A DNA stretch of 64,000 bases, taken from the IMG/VR virus record IMGVR_UViG_3300042485_001470, positions 1 to 64,000 of that record. One strand, written 5' to 3'. Numbering within the stretch: the first letter of the stretch is position 1; every line of letters starts with the position of its first letter. Made by a program: the position numbers and the translations under genes. Under the pieces are notes generated by a model that ran no database searches, was not told where the DNA came from, and saw only the letters and a list, made by a program, of their open reading frames with translations. This stretch comes from a virus. Positions 290 to 64,000 of this stretch are shown here, piece by piece.

Positions 290-314
290 ATTTTACCCCT
301 TTCTAACTATTTTA

Positions 315-322
315 TATTTATA
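315..322 (+). promoter_or_regulatory. Putative phage late-promoter motif TATTTATA
   Basis: Same octamer recurs 19-28 nt upstream of most structural-gene starts. Confidence 0.6.
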
Positions 323-55016: not shown

Positions 55017-56297
55017 ATGAAAATTGTTGAGTCTATTGGCGAATTGAACGAATTGAAAGTTTTGTTGGAAACCGAAGTATCCATTTGGTATCCAATATGG
55101 GTAGATAATGATAAGCACCCACAAAACACTCATATATCGTTCGTATTCGTTAGAACCTTATCGGACAAGTACATACTACCACAACAACATACAGACGCTG
55201 TATCGCTATCTAATGAACAAATAGAAAGTGTGTTGAATACTGCCGGTGAAAAATGGGTTTTCCAAAAGAAAAAGCTACTACAATCTTTTACAAATGTAAG
55301 GGAAGGCTTGAATGATGTTGATACCGCTCACTTCTTAAAGACCGGTGAACCAATAGATTACTCTCAACCACTACAACACTTAGTAGCTCCCCTTTTACAT
55401 AGGGGTTACAAAGAAGACATCATTCAATCTATTCCCATTCTTAAACTTGCGGAAGCAATAGAACCACAATTACTAAAACATACAAATCAAAAGAGTAAAA
55501 CTTATAATTGGTATAACGATATATTCTTACCTACCCTTTCAGATATTGAACGATTTGGGATTCGGGTCGATGGAAAAAAATTTATTGATAGATGGCCTCA
55601 AGCCTATAAGCAATTAAAAGGAGATTGTGTGTTTACGGAATACAATCCATTTACGGTGACAGGTAGACCATCCAATAGACATGGTGGTGTGAATTATGCC
55701 GCCCTCAATAAAACCGATGGTAGTAGAGATGTGTTCGTTTCCGATGGGATATTTCTACAAATGGATTATAACGCATATCACCCCCGTCTAATCGCTAAGT
55801 TGGTTAAGTTCGATGCGCCGGATGGTAATATGCACCAATGGTTAGCCGAACAATATGGTTGTAGTGTGGATGAATCGAAGGGAATTACGTTCCAATTACT
55901 TTATGGTGGTATCGATGATGAGTTCCGCCAAATCCCATACTTTGATAAAGTGGCTGATTATATAGATGAGTTGTGGATTGAAACACAAAGAAGGGGATAC
56001 TTACAAACACCACATAGAGAGATACCCCTAAGTTGGATAGAACAACCAAATGCTCAAAAAGTATTTAACTATCTACTACAAGCGGTAGAAACTGAAATGA
56101 ATATTGATAAGATGATGAAGATATTAGAATGTATTAAGGGAAGTGGTATTGAGTTTTCCCTATACACATACGATTCATTTCTTTTTGATGTTCCTGTTGA
56201 TGTTGATAAAGGGCTTATTAAGAAATTGAAAGAAATAATCGAAGAAGGGGGGTTTCCTATCAAAGCTAGTTGGGGAAAAACTTACGGAAAACTCTAA
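55017..56297 (+). CDS. Short divergent family A DNA polymerase (426 aa)
   Basis: TVTGRPS, motif A MDYNAYHPRL, motif B KGITFQLLYG, NYLLQAVE, motif C TYDSFLFD; start moved from 54936, which lies inside the tmRNA. Confidence 0.8.
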   Translation: MKIVESIGELNELKVLLETEVSIWYPIWVDNDKHPQNTHISFVFVRTLSDKYILPQQHTDAVSLSNEQIESVLNTAGEKWVFQKKKLLQSFTNVREGLNDVDTAHFLKTGEPIDYSQPLQHLVAPLLHRGYKEDIIQSIPILKLAEAIEPQLLKHTNQKSKTYNWYNDIFLPTLSDIERFGIRVDGKKFIDRWPQAYKQLKGDCVFTEYNPFTVTGRPSNRHGGVNYAALNKTDGSRDVFVSDGIFLQMDYNAYHPRLIAKLVKFDAPDGNMHQWLAEQYGCSVDESKGITFQLLYGGIDDEFRQIPYFDKVADYIDELWIETQRRGYLQTPHREIPLSWIEQPNAQKVFNYLLQAVETEMNIDKMMKILECIKGSGIEFSLYTYDSFLFDVPVDVDKGLIKKLKEIIEEGGFPIKASWGKTYGKL

Positions 56298-56303
56298 AGA
56301 ATA

Positions 56304-56311
56304 TATTTATA
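56304..56311 (+). promoter_or_regulatory. Putative late-promoter motif TATTTATA
   Basis: 25 nt upstream of ATG 56337. Confidence 0.6.
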
Positions 56312-56336: not shown

Positions 56337-56939
56337 ATGAAAAAAATCAGTACCCTTATCGGTTTCCTACTTGTTTCTTTAATTTCGTTTGGGCAAGATG
56401 TTAGAATTAAAAACGAAGTATTTGAAGTTCTTTATTCACAATCATTAGAACAACCTTTAGTAATTAAATATCGTTCAACTAATAGACCTACAAATGTGAA
56501 CAGAGGTACTATGGATTTTTACAAAGAACCAAACATTAAAACATCAGATGCGGAAGATTACGCTAAAAATATATACGATAAAGGACATGGTGCACCAGCT
56601 GCAACATTCTCTGATAATATGGTAAACCTAAAACAAACATTCTCATACTTAAATTGTATAATGCAAGACCAATACCTTAATAGAGGTGAGTGGAGATTGT
56701 TAGAAGAACAAATCCGTAAATGGGATGATACTGAAAATATAACTGTACTAATAAAAACATTCTTTGATACTCCAGTAAAAAGAGTGGCAACTGGAGCAGC
56801 AATTCCATCTTACTTACAAAAACACATCTATTTTGAAACACAAAAGAAATGGAGATGTTATGTATTTCTAAATCAAAAACCAAAATTTCATTGGGATGAA
56901 TTAGAAATGATATGCGAAGCTGAAGACCACAAATTTTAA
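56337..56939 (+). CDS. Secreted DNA/RNA non-specific endonuclease (NucA/Serratia-type His-Me finger)
   Basis: Signal peptide MKKISTLIGFLLVSLISFG/Q; YDKGHGAPAA, TF.YLN...Q...LNRGEWRLLE. Confidence 0.85.
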   Translation: MKKISTLIGFLLVSLISFGQDVRIKNEVFEVLYSQSLEQPLVIKYRSTNRPTNVNRGTMDFYKEPNIKTSDAEDYAKNIYDKGHGAPAATFSDNMVNLKQTFSYLNCIMQDQYLNRGEWRLLEEQIRKWDDTENITVLIKTFFDTPVKRVATGAAIPSYLQKHIYFETQKKWRCYVFLNQKPKFHWDELEMICEAEDHKF

Positions 56940-59900
56940 TGAATATGAATTTATCTGAATTAATAAACGAAATACTATCCGAATGGGCATATAGAGTTGA
57001 AAATGGTATGCCTGACCCAAAGAACCCAACCCATTTAAAGGAGTTGGGTATTGTACTTTCTGAAATGGGATTATCTCATATCAAAGATACATTGGTTGAA
57101 AACCTTTTGGTGGAAACGGGAAAAACTCCACAAAAAGTTGTTGAAGCTGAAAAGGGTAACTTTACAAATCCTGCTCTTAATAAATCTATTAAGTATAAAA
57201 ATGATAAAGGTGAAGATAAGGAAGGATTGGTTGGTAACCTGTTAAGATTACCAAAAGAGCATCCTGGTAGAAAAGCAGCGGAAGCAACATTACCTGCCGA
57301 TGGTACGCCGGAAAGAGATTCTATTAATAAAGATTTGGGTGGGGAAGGTCAACCTAAAAAGCCTGAAGATGGAAAGGGCAAAGAAGGTGGAGAATCAGGT
57401 GGTGGAGAAGATGAAAAAATGAAACAAGCGGCGGCAATGTTTGACCCAAAAGTAGACCCAGCTATGGCTGCTAGAATGAATAAAGAAAAAGAAGTTCAAG
57501 CTCAATTAGCAAAAGATGCTGAAGCACAAAACGAACCACCCCCAACTCCAAAAAACCAAACAACAAACAAACAATTAGCAAAAGCAGCTGGATTTGATAA
57601 TGTTGGTAGTTGGTATAATGACCTTAATAAGAAAGCAATGTCTGATGATCCTGAAGTGGCATCAAAGGCGGAAAAAGATTTAGATACATACGAAAAAAAT
57701 AAAGTAAAAGATGCTCAATCAACTGATGATTTTAATCCAATAGATAGTAAGGATGTAGCAAAAGAAATGCCACAAGCTGACCCAGAAACATTTGGAGGAG
57801 ATAGTGATATACCGGATGGTATAGAACCTGAACAATTGCAAAAATTCAATACTGATATTAGTAAAGTAGCACAGCAAGTAGCTGATGCAAAGGCTAAAGG
57901 AGAACCAGCACCAAACATTAACTTATGTGATGTGACTGTTCCTGGTACTAACTTATATTGTGATGATAATTTGGGTATTCCAAGAGACCAAATGCCACAA
58001 TTCAAAGGTACTGCTCAACCTGGTAGTAGAGCAGCTGGAATGGATGTGGATGCAAGTGGTGAGGTAGACACTGAACCTGTATTCAAAGAAATGTTAAAAG
58101 AGAAAGGTATTAAGACATTACAAACGGAAATACCTGCTGATAAATTAAAAGCAACTCAGCAAGATTTAGTTGGTGCAAAAGTAGTTGGTATGATGGGTGT
58201 TTTAAAAGACCCAAATCACCCAGCTTTTGAAAAAATTACCGCACCAATATATGTGAGTAGGGATGGTCACGTAATTGATGGACATCACCGTTGGGCGGCA
58301 ATCGTAGCTCATAATGCAGCAAATCCAGACAATCAAATACCAATGAAAACAACGGTATTGGATATGGATATTAAAGATGCAATTCCAATGGCGAATAAGT
58401 TTGCAGAAGATATGGGTATTGCGGCTAAGAAAGCAGATGCAAATAAAGAAGCACCAACCGAACAACCATCAGAACCAGCAAAAAGAGAACCTGCCAATAA
58501 TGATCCTGAATCTAAAGCACAGCAATTTAAAGGAAAATCATCTGGTGAAAATATCCAAACAATGGAAATGGAAGGTGGTGGATTCGTATATGGAACGAAG
58601 CACGGAAACACCGCAATGGTTGATGATATATTAGATGATGTTAAATCTAAAATACCAAAAGAAAGATGGAAGGATGTTGTATTCGTAGGTGAGGGAGGTG
58701 CAACTGGTGATAGTGGTGAAGTGGAATTTAACGATGAAATGGATTACGCAGCTCCAAAGTTCAAAGAAATGGGTGCTGGTGTGGATACATGGGATGGTGA
58801 TGATATGGATGTACATAATGACCAATCTAAATTATACCAAAAGCAAAAAGAAAAAACTGGATTTAACGATTCTCAAGTTAAAGCTGGTAACTGGGCTAGT
58901 ATGATTGGGCAGGGAGAAGGTACTGATACAATGTCACCAAACGATTATTTAGATGATGAAGGTAAACAATTCTTAAGTGATGCTGCAAAAGAGGCTGGAT
59001 TCCCACCAATAGAAAATTGGAATGAACCAACCGAACAGGATAAAGATACTCTTTATAGATTATCATTCCCAGAAGATAATGGTGATAAACCAACAAAGAT
59101 AAATGATATTCAAGTTGCATTTAATGATGCAAGAGATGAAAATTTAATTGAAAAGAATAAAGAACTAACTGCACAGGGTAAAATACCTATTACGATTGCA
59201 GGTGAGAGTCATGTTGACTTAGTCGATAAAATGACAAGAAAACAAAAAGGAGCATCAAGCGAAAAATTACCTGAACCAGAAGCCCCATCAGAAGAAGATG
59301 GTGGTGTTGTATATAGTGTGGGTGGTGGATATTATTCGGATAAGCCTGATGGGCCTGCACAATATGTGGCAACTGAAAATGTAATTCAAAAAGTATTAAT
59401 TGAAGGTGATATTAATTTTTCTTATTTATTGTTTGAAGCAGCAGTAACTAAAAAAACTTCTAAAGGTAAGGTTGTAAAATTAAGAACAATCAAACCAAAA
59501 GACCAAAATAAAGCAACTGCAGCAGCTGCGGCAGCAAAACCACAGCCACCTGCTAAAATTGTACCACCGGGAGTAAAACAAAAACCACCGGTTATCGCAC
59601 CACCAGAGGTAAAACCAAAATCACAAGCACCTGCTAAAATTGTACCTCCTGGTGTAAAACCAAAGGCATCAGTTCCACCTCCACCACCGCCTCCACCGCC
59701 GCCACTTCCTAAGAAGAAAGCAGGAGCTGTGCCACCTCCACCGCCACCTCCGCCACCAACGGTGAAGAAAGCAGGAGCTGTGCCACCGCCACCGCCACCA
59801 CTTCCTACGAAAAAAGCAGGAGCTGTGCCGCCTCCACCGCCACCTCCGCCACCAACGGCGAAGAAAGCAGGAGCTGTACCACCTCCACCGCCACCTCCTC

Positions 59901-62900
59901 CGCCGCCACTTCCTAAGAAGAAAGCAGGAGCTGTACCTCCTCCACCGCCACCTCCGCCACCTCCACCGCTTCCTAAAAAAGCAGGAGATAAAAGTGGTTG
60001 GGATGGATATGAAGAACCTGAATGGATAAAAAATGCTCCAAAAGGTTGGGATGATGATGCGGTTAAAAATAAGAGTGCTTGGGGTGATGAACCAATGCAA
60101 GAACCTGATTGGATGAAAGGTGGTTCTTCGTGGGATAAAAAGCCAATGCCTAAAGGTGAAACTCCACCTCCTGGTACTAAAAAAGCTGGAGCAATTCCAC
60201 CACCGCCTCCACCGCCTCCACCGGGAGCTAAGAGTGCAAATAATAACGAAAATATACCACCAACCGATAAACAAGCAAATGAACAAATAGCTCAAGAAAG
60301 AAAAGGTTTAACTCATGAGGAAAATCAAGTTTATGAATTCTTAGAAGGAATGCCTGAAGAGCAAAGGGCAGAGGCAATTCAAAAAGCATTGGATGATAGA
60401 AGTTTGTTGCAAAAAGGATTGCAAGATACAATGGTAGGCGGTTGGTTTAAGAAGAAAGGGAAAATGTTGTCTAATGTATATGATGGAATAAAGCAATGGT
60501 ATAAAACAGGTAAAGTTGGTACTACTAAAGATTGTAGTGGTGCACCAGCTGGACCTCATGCAAATAAGAATGAAAATATAAAAGAAGATTCACAAAATAG
60601 ACAAGACTATTTAGCATCTTTAGATAAGACGGGTAAAAAGAAAAAGAAAGCTGATGATAGTGATTGTATGGATGTGCATGTTGAGGACTATCAAAAAAGA
60701 GATAAAGATGGTAACTTAATGTACAAAAAAGAACCTGTATATGAAAGTGGAGAAAAACCAGACCCAAAAAACTTTGGACCAGATGGTGCATATTTCGGTG
60801 GGTTGGGAACTGGATACATAGGTCCTAGAAAAACTGGAACTGAATATGGTAATGCTTCTAAAGAAGATGCATTTAAAGCAAGTGAATTAGATTCTAAAAC
60901 AGGATACTTTAAGAGAGATGGAAAATACTATGGTGTAGATGGTGAGGAAGTAAATGCGAAAGGACAAAAATTAGATGCAGAGGGTAATACAACACAAAAG
61001 ACAGAAAGATGTTTCTTTTGTTTTCCTCCGGGAAAAAAGGTCCCAGTTACGCAAAAAGTTGCTGATTTGGAAGATGGTTTAACCGCTGAACAAAAACATG
61101 CAGCTCATCATTCGGAACATGCTCAACATGAAAGAAAGCATGCGATGTGGCATTTAGGAATAGAAGCTTCATTGATAGTTGGTGGTGCATTAGCTGGCCC
61201 TATGATATTAGCTAAGATGGGAGTCGGTGGAGCAGCTGCTGGAGCTGGTTCGCATGGTGTAGCACAAGCAACTTCACAAGCCGCAACAGCCGCAGCTGAA
61301 CATCACGGAGCATCTGCATTTGCAGCACACGTTTTAAAAGATTTTGGAAAGCATGCATTAGCAGAAACATTAGGAGTAACGAACCCTTATGCAGCAGCAG
61401 GGAGTGGGTTGGCAGCAAGTGCAGTTACTGGTGGTGTATTAGAATCATTTTGGAAAGATGTAGAAAAGTATAATTTATTATCGGAAGATATTGATGGAGA
61501 AATGGATGAGAATAAAGGTAAAGATTTCTTAGAAAAAATTATGGTATTGATGATGGAGAAAATGAAAACTTACAAAATGACTCCTCAGCAAAAGTTGGAA
61601 AGTATAAGAAAGTATAAATTTGAAAAAGCTGAAAACGAAAAGAAAAAACAAAAACAAGATAAATTAAAAGATTTGGCTAATTTACTAAAAGAAAAAACAG
61701 CAAAGTCAAAACAAAATTCTATAAATCATTTTGTTGAATTTGCAGCTAAACGATTAAATTTAAAAGAAACTCCAAAAATTAATTTAATGAGTGGAAATGA
61801 ATTTAAAAATGAATTGGCAGCTTTGGGTGGGTATGACCCTTCTTCAAAAGAAATATTTGTTGCAACCGAAGGAAGATTGACAGCTGATATTTTAAGAACT
61901 ATTGCACATGAAATGGTACATAGAAAGCAAGAAGAAAAAGGATTCCTTAAGAACATTGATAAAGATGGTTCAGCTGGGTCTAAAATAGAAAATCAAGCCA
62001 ATTCAATTGCTGGAATTTTGATGAGAGAATATGGTAAGATAAACAAACAAATCTATAACGAAAATACAAAAAAACAATTAGAATTAGTAAGTAATTTATT
62101 ATTAGAGAAGGTTAATCGTTTTATTGATGAGGCTAAACCAAAGAAAGATGATCCTGATGTAAAATATATAGATGGAAAAGGAAAAGAACATACAATCAAA
62201 TTTTCATCAGCAATTAAGTATGATGAAAAACATCCTGCTTATATAGCAGCTATGAAATTAAAAGATACTGGAGATAACTCAAATGATACCCAAACTGTTC
62301 AAGGTGCAGGATTGTTTGATGACCCAGAATATCAAAAAAGAATGGGAGCTGAAGTACCACCAACACAAACAACACCAACTGATTCAGAAGAAAATCCGGA
62401 AGGATTGTATGACCCTAATGATAAATTACAATCGGCAGTTGTTGATGCAAAAAATCCAAAAGAATTATTTTCCGCATTAGATGAATTAGGTAAAGATGAG
62501 GAAGATATAATGTTGGATAAGGTTAAAGCTGGGGCAGGTGGTCCTGTTGCATCAACTGGTGAAACTCTTTGTACTGAAGCTCAAACTAATATGATACAAG
62601 GTAGATATAATCCGAAGGAAGTTAGGAGTTCTACGGAATATAAAGCCGAATTGGCAAGTGTTAGAAATGTAATGAGTGGTACTGATAAGAGAGCAAAAAC
62701 TGCTCTTACTAAGGAATTGGATAATATTTGTGACAAAATGGGGTATTATAAAGAAGATGGTAACCCTGATTATGAATTAGCAATGGCTATGAAAGCCGAA
62801 GCAGATTTGTATATTAAACAAAATTTACCAGCTTTCAAAAAAACAAATGTAGCAAAAACTAAATTTAAAAAAGAAGAAGATATGGTAAGTTGGATGAAAG

Positions 62901-64000
62901 CATCATTCTATTCATCATATTCTTTAATAAATAATGGACCTGCTGATTGGGATAGAAAAAAGGGTAATGGTAGAGTAATGAAAGCTAATCCAAGAACACA
63001 AGGAGCTACAAAGCAAGTTTTATTAGATGGTTTAAAAAACGCAAAAACTCCTGAAGAAAAGGCTCATTATGAAAATCAATTAAAAGTTTGGAGTAAATTT
63101 AAAGGTTATCACGATACGTTTTTGGTTTACAAAAATGATAAAGGATTGGTTTCAGTATTTCATATATCAAATAAAAAAAGTGATGAGTTAGATGACCCTC
63201 AAAATAATACAACTCCTGAAACTAGACTTGCTAACTATATGGCAGCAGCTAGAGAAGCTAATTTAAGTCCTAAAGCAGCTAAAGCGGTAGCTAACGCACA
63301 ATCAGTAGCTATGGCAGGTTCTGCTGATAATGATAATATTGCAAAGGGTGCTTGGAATGAAGTAGAAGATGTAAACTTAATAACATCATTAGCCGGTAGA
63401 TTACCTGCTAGAGGTCAAACTGATGTTAAAGATGAATATTATACTGATTTGAAAGGTGATAAATTAGTTAAAGATTGGTATAAAAAGAAATATGGTAAAG
63501 ATAAGTGGGAAGCAAAATGGAAGGCAGCAAAACCAAATGAAGTAATTGGAGTAGTGATGCAAATTGCAGAAGCACAAGATGATATTTCAAAACTATCAGG
63601 AAACTTTACTAAATTTATGTTAAAGCAAGGTCAATTAGCACAAAGTGTATTTGCAAAAGCTCAATCTGGTATGAATGCAAAACAAATTTCTCAAAGCTTT
63701 AACGGAATATATTCACCAAAAGAAATACAAGCTATTCTTGATAGTGAAACAATGAAAATGTTAGCTGATAAAAAAGCACAACATGCTGCTGGTTTAGAAG
63801 GTGTACATAAAGGATTTATTACATCACTACATAAAGCAGATGGTACAAAGCCTGGTCATAGTGGTAAAAACGGACCTGCTGTTGAAACCTACGTTGCTGG
63901 TACGTTAAAAGCATTACATATTGATACCTACGTTACTAACTTTGATGAAAATATTGAGATTGAAATGGGTGGAGTTGGATGTAAACCTATTGATGTTAGG
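56939..64000 (+). CDS. Giant multi-domain (polyvalent-type) protein, >=2354 aa, 3' truncated; absent from the ORF track
   Basis: ATG overlaps the nuclease stop (TAATG); manual translation finds no stop to window end; ParB-like DGHHRW (58277), TraB/TIKI-like GTKH...RD...GESH, polyproline, HEMVH (61907). Confidence 0.88.
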   Translation, partial: MNMNLSELINEILSEWAYRVENGMPDPKNPTHLKELGIVLSEMGLSHIKDTLVENLLVETGKTPQKVVEAEKGNFTNPALNKSIKYKNDKGEDKEGLVGNLLRLPKEHPGRKAAEATLPADGTPERDSINKDLGGEGQPKKPEDGKGKEGGESGGGEDEKMKQAAAMFDPKVDPAMAARMNKEKEVQAQLAKDAEAQNEPPPTPKNQTTNKQLAKAAGFDNVGSWYNDLNKKAMSDDPEVASKAEKDLDTYEKNKVKDAQSTDDFNPIDSKDVAKEMPQADPETFGGDSDIPDGIEPEQLQKFNTDISKVAQQVADAKAKGEPAPNINLCDVTVPGTNLYCDDNLGIPRDQMPQFKGTAQPGSRAAGMDVDASGEVDTEPVFKEMLKEKGIKTLQTEIPADKLKATQQDLVGAKVVGMMGVLKDPNHPAFEKITAPIYVSRDGHVIDGHHRWAAIVAHNAANPDNQIPMKTTVLDMDIKDAIPMANKFAEDMGIAAKKADANKEAPTEQPSEPAKREPANNDPESKAQQFKGKSSGENIQTMEMEGGGFVYGTKHGNTAMVDDILDDVKSKIPKERWKDVVFVGEGGATGDSGEVEFNDEMDYAAPKFKEMGAGVDTWDGDDMDVHNDQSKLYQKQKEKTGFNDSQVKAGNWASMIGQGEGTDTMSPNDYLDDEGKQFLSDAAKEAGFPPIENWNEPTEQDKDTLYRLSFPEDNGDKPTKINDIQVAFNDARDENLIEKNKELTAQGKIPITIAGESHVDLVDKMTRKQKGASSEKLPEPEAPSEEDGGVVYSVGGGYYSDKPDGPAQYVATENVIQKVLIEGDINFSYLLFEAAVTKKTSKGKVVKLRTIKPKDQNKATAAAAAAKPQPPAKIVPPGVKQKPPVIAPPEVKPKSQAPAKIVPPGVKPKASVPPPPPPPPPPLPKKKAGAVPPPPPPPPPTVKKAGAVPPPPPPLPTKKAGAVPPPPPPPPPTAKKAGAVPPPPPPPPPPLPKKKAGAVPPPPPPPPPPPLPKKAGDKSGWDGYEEPEWIKNAPKGWDDDAVKNKSAWGDEPMQEPDWMKGGSSWDKKPMPKGETPPPGTKKAGAIPPPPPPPPPGAKSANNNENIPPTDKQANEQIAQERKGLTHEENQVYEFLEGMPEEQRAEAIQKALDDRSLLQKGLQDTMVGGWFKKKGKMLSNVYDGIKQWYKTGKVGTTKDCSGAPAGPHANKNENIKEDSQNRQDYLASLDKTGKKKKKADDSDCMDVHVEDYQKRDKDGNLMYKKEPVYESGEKPDPKNFGPDGAYFGGLGTGYIGPRKTGTEYGNASKEDAFKASELDSKTGYFKRDGKYYGVDGEEVNAKGQKLDAEGNTTQKTERCFFCFPPGKKVPVTQKVADLEDGLTAEQKHAAHHSEHAQHERKHAMWHLGIEASLIVGGALAGPMILAKMGVGGAAAGAGSHGVAQATSQAATAAAEHHGASAFAAHVLKDFGKHALAETLGVTNPYAAAGSGLAASAVTGGVLESFWKDVEKYNLLSEDIDGEMDENKGKDFLEKIMVLMMEKMKTYKMTPQQKLESIRKYKFEKAENEKKKQKQDKLKDLANLLKEKTAKSKQNSINHFVEFAAKRLNLKETPKINLMSGNEFKNELAALGGYDPSSKEIFVATEGRLTADILRTIAHEMVHRKQEEKGFLKNIDKDGSAGSKIENQANSIAGILMREYGKINKQIYNENTKKQLELVSNLLLEKVNRFIDEAKPKKDDPDVKYIDGKGKEHTIKFSSAIKYDEKHPAYIAAMKLKDTGDNSNDTQTVQGAGLFDDPEYQKRMGAEVPPTQTTPTDSEENPEGLYDPNDKLQSAVVDAKNPKELFSALDELGKDEEDIMLDKVKAGAGGPVASTGETLCTEAQTNMIQGRYNPKEVRSSTEYKAELASVRNVMSGTDKRAKTALTKELDNICDKMGYYKEDGNPDYELAMAMKAEADLYIKQNLPAFKKTNVAKTKFKKEEDMVSWMKASFYSSYSLINNGPADWDRKKGNGRVMKANPRTQGATKQVLLDGLKNAKTPEEKAHYENQLKVWSKFKGYHDTFLVYKNDKGLVSVFHISNKKSDELDDPQNNTTPETRLANYMAAAREANLSPKAAKAVANAQSVAMAGSADNDNIAKGAWNEVEDVNLITSLAGRLPARGQTDVKDEYYTDLKGDKLVKDWYKKKYGKDKWEAKWKAAKPNEVIGVVMQIAEAQDDISKLSGNFTKFMLKQGQLAQSVFAKAQSGMNAKQISQSFNGIYSPKEIQAILDSETMKMLADKKAQHAAGLEGVHKGFITSLHKADGTKPGHSGKNGPAVETYVAGTLKALHIDTYVTNFDENIEIEMGGVGCKPIDVR
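59675..60223 (+). repeat. Seven polyproline tracts (P10,P9,P6,P9,P10,P11,P9) mostly joined by KKAGA(V/I) linkers
   Basis: Manual translation of the ccn-rich region. Confidence 0.9.

What the first reader, a model, noticed from the sequence alone, without database searches (positions are those of the whole stretch)
56939..64000. Uncalled >=2354-aa polyvalent protein that looks like a head-packaged, protease-processed effector polyprotein
Seen in manual translation, in order: N-terminal LINEILSEWAYRV..GMPD; ParB/Srx-like domain (~57960-58420); TraB/TIKI-like domain (~58560-59230); polyproline; His-rich hydrophobic segment; zincin HEMVH...ENQAN (~61720-62060); possible PD-(D/E)xK-like domain. 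Clusters of (L/I/V)-x-E fall at several domain boundaries (LVENLLVE ~57100, VLIE/LLFE ~59400, VLES/LLSE ~61440, LLKE ~61685, LLLE/FIDE ~62100). Known: T4 prohead protease gp21 cleaves after (I/L)-x-E, and phage polyvalent proteins combine such enzymatic domains. Inference: a late-expressed cargo cut in the prohead into several injected host-takeover or anti-defence effectors.
Basis: partly seen in the sequence, partly recalled or inferred. Interest (0 to 1): 0.8.

Follow-up and report, generated by a model that had tools for sequence, protein, structure and literature searches.

The report
Capsid-targeted polyvalent nuclease-type phage protein
A 2447-residue multi-enzyme protein of an uncultured T4-like lake phage starts with a leader rich in the cutting motif of the phage head protease, so it is probably packed into the capsid, but the idea that it is cut apart at every domain joint fails the statistics.

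Summary
The ORF is real: 2447 aa, ending 282 nt past the window, with more than 250 metagenomic homologues.

Most domain calls hold:
- ParB/Srx fold.
- ChaN/EreA/TIKI-like fold, although the TraB Pfam model does not match.
- Polyproline repeats.
- A His-rich membrane-like segment.
- A mini-zincin.
- A C-terminal domain whose best fold matches are the restriction enzymes HinP1I and MspI, with an invariant D-x17-(S/T)-x-K.

The (L/I)-x-E claim is only partly right. Over the whole protein the motif is at chance (22 seen, 17.5 expected). Only residues 1-66 are enriched (7 seen, 1.7 expected).

That N-terminal cluster does mean something. In a complete relative of 286 ORFs, only three ORFs have six sites in their first 68 residues: the T4-type prohead protease, the major capsid protein and this protein's homologue. 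A T4 control ranks known head-core proteins on top. The leader and its junction L-x-E persist in distant stand-alone relatives of the C-terminal domain.

Best reading: a capsid-targeted internal head protein of nuclease type that has grown into a polyvalent protein. One internal joint (1721-1731) repeats the leader junction. Packaging and cleavage are untested.

The scan noted this family before on other DNA, in first-reader notes only.

The parts
56303..56311 (+). Promoter-like motif ATATTTATA upstream of the nuclease-polyvalent gene pair
   Evidence: The same motif lies 13-85 nt upstream of sheath, fibre, adaptor and other + strand genes. In relative G001 it occurs 34 times on the coding strand and 2 times on the other, and there too it precedes the homologous gene pair. 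Late timing is inferred, not shown.
56337..56939 (+). Upstream gene, translationally coupled (ATGA overlap): DNA/RNA non-specific endonuclease with a signal-like N-terminus
   Evidence: Pfam Endonuclease_NS, E = 6e-20; phrog_14168, nuclease; N-terminal sequence seen.
56939..64000 (+). Polyvalent protein ORF, 2447 aa; its stop lies at genome position 64282, beyond the window
   Evidence: more than 258 homologues.
56939..57115 (+). N-module, res 1-59: three helices carrying seven (L/I)-x-E sites. Candidate capsid-targeting propeptide, ending at the junction LVE (57-59).
   Evidence: 7 sites seen against 1.7 expected. It is the only such 66-aa window in the 95-kb record. It is the most conserved part of the family. 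The AF2 model gives helices 5-19, 30-42 and 46-57, then a disordered stretch 58-73. The module is homologous to the N-termini of stand-alone C-domain proteins.
57158..57337 (+). Small conserved alpha/beta module, res 74-133
   Evidence: AF2 pLDDT 62-85. Nearly invariant residues. Also present in distant relatives.
57944..58426 (+). ParB/Srx-fold domain, res 336-496, with DGHHRW at 447-452
   Evidence: phrog_2859. The nearest cultured-phage matches lie inside giant proteins of F116-like phages that are annotated as structural.
58478..59254 (+). ChaN/EreA/TIKI-like domain, res 514-772 (H555, E585, R732, H758)
59303..59548 (+). Small beta domain, res 789-870, with a low-confidence loop holding LIE820 and LFE831
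59549..60238 (+). Proline-rich spacer with tandem units of about 17 aa built around runs of 7-12 prolines
   Evidence: Present in only a few homologues.
60239..62068 (+). Mobile cassette, res 1101-1710: helical part, Cys-containing part, His-rich plus membrane-like segment (1396-1505) and mini-zincin (about 1580-1710; HExxH at 1657, ENxAN at 1684)
   Evidence: The cassette is conserved as one unit in 8 proteins that have different N-terminal cores. Zincin evidence.
62072..62266 (+). Internal repeat of the N-module end plus the small module, res 1712-1776, with LLE at 1721 and IDE at 1729
   Evidence: Local alignment of 51-114 with 1715-1771: score 48, P = 0.013 against shuffles. MAFFT places it on the N-modules of the stand-alone relatives. 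All 8 cassette-bearing proteins keep an (L/I)-x-E here.
62396..64000 (+). C-terminal nuclease-like domain, res 1820-2447 (runs to 64279): PD-(D/E)xK-like core with a helical insertion; D2059, S2077-N-K2079, D2086

Best explanation
This is an enlarged member of an undescribed, widespread family of internal head proteins of uncultured T4-like phages.

The basic family plan has three parts:
- a conserved three-helix N-terminal module rich in (L/I)-x-E;
- a variable linker;
- a C-terminal domain of about 620 aa resembling MspI/HinP1I-type restriction nucleases.

In this protein, and in about 250 others, extra modules have been inserted into the linker, making it a polyvalent protein. Here the inserts are a ParB/Srx domain, a ChaN/EreA/TIKI-like hydrolase-type domain, a proline spacer, and a cassette holding a membrane-like segment and a small zincin peptidase.

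Inferred mechanism:
1. The gene is transcribed with the virion genes.
2. The N-module docks the protein to the prohead core, as the T4 capsid-targeting sequence does.
3. The gp21-type protease removes the N-module at the junction L-x-E (after E59 and/or E69).
4. The protease possibly also cuts at the repeated junction at 1721-1731, which would free the nuclease-type unit.
5. The mature protein leaves the capsid with the DNA and acts on DNA in the new host. The phage's own DNA is probably modified and so spared.

Shown here: the ORF, the folds and motifs, the statistics, the family architecture, and the protease gene in relatives. Inferred: packaging, cleavage, timing, ejection and any enzymatic activity.
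For: - The N-terminal (L/I)-x-E cluster is real: 7 seen against 1.7 expected.
- The cluster is unique in the 95-kb record.
- In the complete relative G001, only the S77 prohead protease, the gp23 capsid protein and the homologue reach 6 sites in their first 68 aa, out of 286 ORFs.
- Eight control motifs give no such ranking.
- T4 control: gp68, gp22, gp23, Inh and gp67 rank on top.
- Known background: gp21 cuts after L/I-x-E; N-terminal propeptides of 7-65 residues are removed; a 10-residue capsid-targeting sequence suffices for loading (PMC9026906).
- The G001 capsid protein keeps L-D-E followed by A at the position of the T4 gp23 site L-T-E followed by A.
- The junction (L/I)-x-E is kept in 28 of 38 distant stand-alone relatives.
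- A short version of the leader heads other cargo: a 971-aa nucleotidyltransferase-type protein in G001 and the homologue in G003.
- A promoter-like motif is shared with the virion genes.
- Domain evidence.
- The architecture varies around a fixed N-module and C-domain.
- Polyvalent proteins with ParB and zincin domains are known, and P1 DdrB is processed and packaged (PMC5512222).
Against: - There is no virion proteome, no measured cleavage and no cultured relative that carries the family.
- The record itself lacks the head module and the protease gene.
- Amphipathic helices rich in Leu and Glu can produce L-x-E without any protease, and the N-module is conserved as a whole, so site conservation is not independent evidence.
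- The gene lies between the tail and replication genes, next to a secreted-type nuclease, not in a head cluster.
- The promoter-like motif also precedes many small non-structural ORFs.
Confidence: 0.5

Rival explanations
1. One reading: a polyprotein cut by the prohead protease at (L/I/V)-x-E clusters at every domain boundary, releasing five or more separate injected effectors.
For: - Some internal sites lie in predicted linkers or loops: LPE777 in the disordered stretch 771-788, and LIE820 and LFE831 in the low-confidence loop 816-833.
- The 1721-1731 joint repeats the N-terminal junction.
- Redundant cut sites are known in phiKZ-type propeptides (PMC9026906).
Against: - Whole-protein counts are at chance: 22 against 17.5, and 27 against 27.0 when V is included.
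- Nine of ten segments are at chance.
- Linker enrichment is not significant, P = 0.07.
- The long linkers 134-207 and 497-510 and the proline spacer hold no site.
- Most homologues lack the middle modules altogether.
Confidence: 0.12
2. It is not packaged. It is a late cytoplasmic DNA-degrading or DNA-processing enzyme that works with the co-translated non-specific endonuclease, for example to break down host DNA for nucleotides. On this view the N-module is simply a protein-interaction domain.
For: - The gene is translationally coupled to an Endonuclease_NS gene.
- It carries two nuclease-type domains.
- It sits next to replication and nucleotide-metabolism genes.
- No evidence places it in virions.
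Against: - The N-terminal motif cluster ranks with the protease and the capsid protein, specifically for (L/I)-x-E.
- The leader is shared with unrelated cargo.
- The closest ParB relatives in cultured phages sit in giant proteins annotated as virion structural.
- The upstream nuclease has a signal-like N-terminus, so it probably acts in another compartment.
Confidence: 0.2
3. It is a virion protein of the tail or ejection apparatus rather than head cargo. The membrane-like segment and rigid proline spacer would help form or extend a conduit across the envelope, and the enzyme domains would be secondary.
For: - The gene follows the tail module: sheath, tube, hub and three large unknown proteins.
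- It has a membrane-like helix and long proline runs.
Against: - The proline and membrane modules are present in only a handful of family members, so they cannot be the core function.
- The conserved parts are the N-module and the nuclease-like domain.
Confidence: 0.08

Closest known systems
Polyvalent proteins of phages and conjugative elements (Iyer, Burroughs, Anand, de Souza, Aravind 2017; PMC5512222), with phage P1 DdrB (ParB domain plus C-terminal zincin, processed and packaged) as prototype
   Same: - Many unrelated enzyme-type domains sit in one polypeptide of a phage.
- The ParB/Srx and zincin hub domains are present.
- Architecture varies strongly among homologues.
- It is proposed to be delivered with the DNA.
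   Different: - The paper text does not mention a ChaN/EreA/TIKI-like domain or a restriction-endonuclease-fold domain as components.
- No Pfam polyvalent-protein family matches.
- The zincin occurs in only about 8 of 120 homologues, so zincin self-processing cannot be the family rule.
- A conserved T4-type N-terminal leader is present instead.
T4 internal head proteins IPI, IPII, IPIII and Alt, with the capsid-targeting sequence and gp21 processing (review PMC9026906)
   Same: - It belongs to a T4-like myovirus lineage with an S77 prohead protease.
- It has an N-terminal helical leader with (L/I)-x-E sites.
- The gene lies outside the head cluster.
- Its content is of the effector type.
- Related short leaders occur on different cargo.
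   Different: - The leader is about 60 residues and three helices, against 7-10 residues in T4.
- The protein is 3 to 30 times larger than the T4 examples.
- There is no sequence similarity to any T4 internal protein.
- Nothing has been tested.
Type II restriction endonucleases MspI and HinP1I (PDB 1sa3, 1ynm)
   Same: - They are the best fold matches and cover over 80% of those chains.
- An acidic residue at the start of one strand and x-K at the end of the next lie at MspI-like spacing. The comparison with the MspI D-N-x-K motif is recalled from memory, not tested.
   Different: - The domain carries a helical insertion of about 300 residues.
- Ser/Thr stands where the second acidic residue is expected.
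- There is no methyltransferase partner, and no activity is known.
EreA/ChaN/TIKI/TraB-PrgY superfamily
   Same: - The fold matches ChaN, EreC, 2qgm and HopBA1.
- It has two G-x-x-H motifs plus a conserved Glu and Arg.
   Different: - The TraB_PrgY_gumN profile finds no match.
- The substrate is unknown.

Membership tests
Polyvalent proteins (Iyer et al. 2017) | Two or more unrelated effector or enzyme domains in one polypeptide of a phage or conjugative element | tested here: met
   ParB/Srx, ChaN-like, zincin and nuclease-like domains in one ORF of a T4-like phage record.
Polyvalent proteins (Iyer et al. 2017) | Carries hub domains of the class (zincin MPTase, DdrB-type ParB) | tested here: inconclusive
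   The zincin motifs are invariant, but only sub-threshold DUF6782 and M78 hits were found. The ParB/Srx fold is present, but no DdrB-ParB or other Pfam ParB model matched.
Polyvalent proteins (Iyer et al. 2017) | Domain architecture varies among close homologues | tested here: met
   The N-core is shared by about 105-119 of 119 homologues, the middle cassette by about 7, and the C-domain by 20-50. Some homologues lack the ChaN-like domain.
Polyvalent proteins (Iyer et al. 2017) | Packaged in the capsid and delivered with the DNA | not testable with these tools
   This needs virion proteomics.
T4-type capsid-targeted, gp21-processed head proteins | The phage lineage encodes a T4 gp21-type (Peptidase_S77) prohead protease | tested here: met
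   Found in relatives G001 (E = 8.6e-29) and G003 (E = 1.3e-27). Absent from this incomplete record, which lacks the head module.
T4-type capsid-targeted, gp21-processed head proteins | N-terminal leader with (L/I)-x-E sites beyond chance | tested here: met
   7 seen against 1.7 expected. Joint top rank with the protease and capsid protein in G001. Specific to this motif. The T4 control behaves as expected.
T4-type capsid-targeted, gp21-processed head proteins | Leader removed by the protease; mature protein found in heads | not testable with these tools
T4-type capsid-targeted, gp21-processed head proteins | Late expression together with the head genes | tested here: inconclusive
   A strand-specific motif, ATATTTATA, is shared with structural genes, but it also precedes many small ORFs.
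ParB/Srx superfamily | ParB/Srx fold with the conserved Arg-containing active-site motif | tested here: met
   [not shown]
TraB/PrgY/GumN family (Pfam PF01963) | Match to the family profile | tested here: not met
   No match at E <= 10 in the whole record, while the control genomes matched. No hit in hmmscan either.
EreA/ChaN/TIKI superfamily (fold level) | Shared fold, with two G-x-x-H motifs and a conserved Glu and Arg | tested here: inconclusive
   [not shown]
Zincin metallopeptidases (DUF6782 / Peptidase_M78-like) | HExxH plus a downstream Glu ligand; profile match over the curated cut-off | tested here: inconclusive
   HExxH and ENxAN are invariant in 21 sequences. DUF6782 scores 23.1 bits against a cut-off of 27, and 11 of 21 homologues hit it weakly. 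No PDB sequence relative was found.
PD-(D/E)xK nucleases (MspI/HinP1I type) | Alpha-beta-beta-beta-alpha-beta core, with Asp at the start of the second strand and (D/E)-x-K in the third | tested here: inconclusive
   [not shown]

The most novel reading that the evidence does not exclude
The three-helix N-module, and its short one-helix form, is a portable capsid-loading and protease-release signal. It defines a large unrecognised family of ejected nuclease-type effectors in uncultured T4-like phages. The linker behind it serves as an insertion platform where arbitrary enzymes are added (ParB, ChaN-like, nucleotidyltransferase, zincin cassette). Neighbouring genes with the same kind of leader, including the minimal family A polymerase at 55017, would then also be head cargo.
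Probability: 0.3. Interest if true: 0.7.

Novelty: new variant of a known kind. Interest (0 to 1): 0.55.

Why it matters
If the N-module is a loading signal, it gives a sequence rule for finding the injected protein arsenal of abundant uncultured freshwater T4-like phages. It would link two ideas that have so far been described separately: polyvalent proteins and the T4 capsid-targeting system. It also points to a packaged nuclease-type effector, which makes sense only if the phage's own DNA is protected by modification. Finally, it offers a natural long leader that could be tested for loading large foreign proteins into phage heads in laboratory strains.

Tried and rejected
- Megablast of the ORF against cultured phages: no match.
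- tblastn of the N-core: only the ParB part hits, inside giant proteins of F116-like phages.
- tblastn of the C-domain: no match.
- Profile search of the nearest cultured phage, Microcystis phage Mel-JY01 (51.5% identity in DNA polymerase): no C-domain homologue.
- Pfam on the whole protein and on eight segments: only weak zincin hits.
- Pfam on ten stand-alone C-domain relatives: nothing.
- PDB sequence-profile searches of the N-core, C-domain and zincin: only a marginal ParB-motif hit.
- Foldseek against the PDB with both models: nothing significant.
- BFVD: only uncharacterised phage proteins.
- ESM Atlas: no named cluster.
- The N-module occurs once per genome, so in its long form it is not a tag shared by many genes.
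- Enrichment of (L/I)-x-E in low-confidence linkers: not significant.
- The T4 late promoter TATAAATA as such is not enriched on the coding strand; the recurrent motif is TATTTATA.
Context of relatives was therefore taken from IMG/VR loci.
- The minus-strand ORF 59669-60295 is a shadow of the proline-coding repeats, not a gene.
Full report
WHAT IS THERE

The window is the first 64 kb of a 95,081-bp IMG/VR virus record estimated 53% complete. It belongs to a T4-like myovirus:
- tail sheath and tube lie upstream;
- endolysin, SSB, UvsX, DnaB-type helicase, ribonucleotide reductase, gp43-type polymerase, clamp and clamp loader lie downstream;
- the nearest cultured phage is Microcystis phage Mel-JY01, at 51.5% polymerase identity.

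The ORF starts at 56939, overlapping the stop of the preceding gene (ATGA). It runs past the window to 64282 and encodes 2447 aa. A search of 5.8 billion proteins found at least 258 relatives, all unnamed and metagenomic, 1350-2475 aa long. One of them is the gene's own 2445-aa call.

DOMAINS

An AlphaFold2 model of residues 1-870, built on 48 homologues, gives:
- three helices (5-57);
- a disordered stretch (58-73);
- a small alpha/beta module (74-133);
- low-confidence and variable sequence to about 335;
- a confident domain at 336-496;
- a very confident domain at 514-772 (pLDDT 85-96);
- a small beta domain (789-870).

Residues 871-1100 are proline runs encoded by about five tandem 51-nt units.

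Residues 1101-1710 form a cassette that is conserved as one unit in eight proteins with different N-terminal cores. It holds:
- a Cys-containing part;
- a His-rich stretch;
- one membrane-like helix (about 1405-1430);
- a 115-residue zincin with invariant HExxH, Q, G-S and ENxA.

That zincin is widespread. The search with residues 1521-2447 returned 2184 hits in 1.84 billion representatives, and many of them cover only the zincin. It gives only sub-threshold DUF6782 and Peptidase_M78 scores.

THE (L/I)-x-E CLAIM

Across the whole protein, [LI]-x-E occurs 22 times against 17.5 +/- 3.8 in shuffles. [LIV]-x-E occurs 27 times against 27.0.

When the protein is split into ten segments and each is shuffled on its own:
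- only residues 1-66 are enriched (7 against 1.7, P < 0.0002);
- residues 791-870 are marginal (2 against 0.29, P = 0.025, uncorrected);
- all other segments are at chance.

Sites inside low-confidence linkers are not significantly enriched (3 against 1.07, P = 0.07).

WHY THE N-TERMINAL CLUSTER STILL MATTERS

1. The record lacks the head module, but relatives G001 (274 kb, rated complete) and G003 encode a T4 gp21-type S77 protease.
2. Among 286 ORFs of G001, only three have six [LI]-x-E sites in their first 68 residues: the protease itself, the gp23-type capsid protein (confirmed by PF07068, E = 8e-75) and the homologue of this protein. With eight control motifs these three proteins are unremarkable.
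3. In this record, the target's N-terminus is the only 66-residue window with six or more sites among about 26,000 windows.
4. A T4 control on 40 annotated genes ranks gp68, gp22, gp23, Inh and gp67 on top. Alt scores only 1, so the measure is specific but not sensitive.
5. The capsid protein of G001 keeps L-D-E followed by Ala where T4 gp23 has its maturation site L-T-E followed by Ala. The T4 cleavage rule and propeptide lengths come from PMC9026906.
6. The C-terminal domain also exists as stand-alone proteins of 650-820 aa. These begin either with a homologous three-helix module or with a short helix of the same type. Of 38 such proteins, 28 keep [LI]-x-E exactly at the junction between that module and the variable linker.
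7. The short helix also heads a 971-aa nucleotidyltransferase-type protein near the head genes of G001, and the G003 homologue. This recalls how the T4 internal proteins share one targeting sequence.

ARCHITECTURE AND ORIGIN

The N-core (1-850) is shared by nearly all homologues, the middle (870-1700) by about seven, and the C-domain by 20-50 at BLAST level. Some homologues lack the ChaN-like domain. The family plan is therefore N-module, linker and nuclease-like domain, with optional inserts.

Residues 1715-1771, just after the zincin, repeat residues 51-114, that is, the junction plus the small module (score 48, P = 0.013). All eight cassette-bearing proteins keep an [LI]-x-E there. The last 735 residues thus look like a complete stand-alone unit fused to the end. 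This one internal joint is a credible second cut site.

EXPRESSION CONTEXT

The motif ATATTTATA lies 13-85 nt upstream of adaptor, fibre, sheath and other genes on the coding strand. It also lies at 56303, ahead of the endonuclease-polyvalent gene pair. In G001 it shows a 34 to 2 strand bias and the same position relative to the homologous pair. This fits co-expression with virion genes, but the motif also precedes many small ORFs, and timing is not shown.

COMPARISON WITH WHAT IS KNOWN

Iyer et al. 2017 (PMC5512222) describe phage polyvalent proteins with ParB and zincin hubs. They propose packaging and zincin-driven processing, with P1 DdrB as precedent.

This protein fits that class by architecture, but differs in four ways:
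- no Pfam polyvalent-protein family matches it;
- it carries ChaN-like and restriction-fold domains that the paper's text does not name;
- most homologues lack the zincin;
- it bears a T4-type leader instead.

The closest ParB relatives in cultured phages lie inside proteins of about 3800 aa in F116-like phages that are annotated as structural. That is annotation only.

The scan's earlier notes show that the same family was flagged in several other genomes, by first readers only. They also show that capsid-cargo polyproteins are a recurring theme in uncultured T4-like phages.

VERDICT

- Most likely (about 0.5) this is a capsid-targeted, protease-trimmed internal head protein of nuclease type that has grown into a polyvalent protein.
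- Multi-site cutting at every joint is unlikely (about 0.12).
- A non-packaged cytoplasmic role remains open (about 0.2).
- Everything about packaging, cleavage, ejection and activity is inference.

Noticed in passing
window 56337-56939 (+): The gene translationally coupled to the giant ORF is a Serratia-type DNA/RNA non-specific endonuclease (Pfam Endonuclease_NS, E = 6e-20). It has a hydrophobic, signal-like N-terminus. The same gene pair behind the same promoter-like motif occurs in relative G001.
   Followed up: partly
window 55017-56297 (+): The minimal family A polymerase-like gene just upstream has four (L/I)-x-E sites in its first 22 residues, and its G001 homologue has the same. That is the highest count in G001 for that window, so this protein too might be head cargo.
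   Followed up: partly
window 314-322, 2325, 19310, 19330, 32013, 41450, 41948, 46046, 56303 (+); also genome positions 64310 and 66062: ATATTTATA is a strand-specific promoter-like motif just upstream of virion genes. It differs from the T4 late promoter TATAAATA at its centre. In G001 it occurs 34 times on the coding strand and 2 times on the other.
   Followed up: partly
G001:C1:243395-246310 (-) and L038:8474-13738: A 971-aa protein near the head genes of G001, and the 1754-aa homologue in G003, both start with a short L-x-E helix. An H-x-G-H nucleotidyltransferase-type motif follows. They look like other cargo behind a similar leader.
   Followed up: no
window 60239-62068 (+): A cassette of about 610 residues (Cys-containing part, His-rich stretch with a second HExxH at 1397, membrane-like helix, zincin) is conserved nearly residue for residue in eight proteins whose N-terminal cores differ. 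It therefore moves as a unit.
   Followed up: partly
window 59669-60295 (-): This 208-aa minus-strand ORF is the Gly-rich shadow of the proline-coding tandem repeats, not a gene. The repeats also raise local G+C to about 0.42 against about 0.33 for the genome.
   Followed up: yes
window 57920-57967 (+): Two nearly invariant cysteines (C330 and C341) lie just before the ParB/Srx domain, in a segment conserved across the family. Their role is unknown.
   Followed up: no
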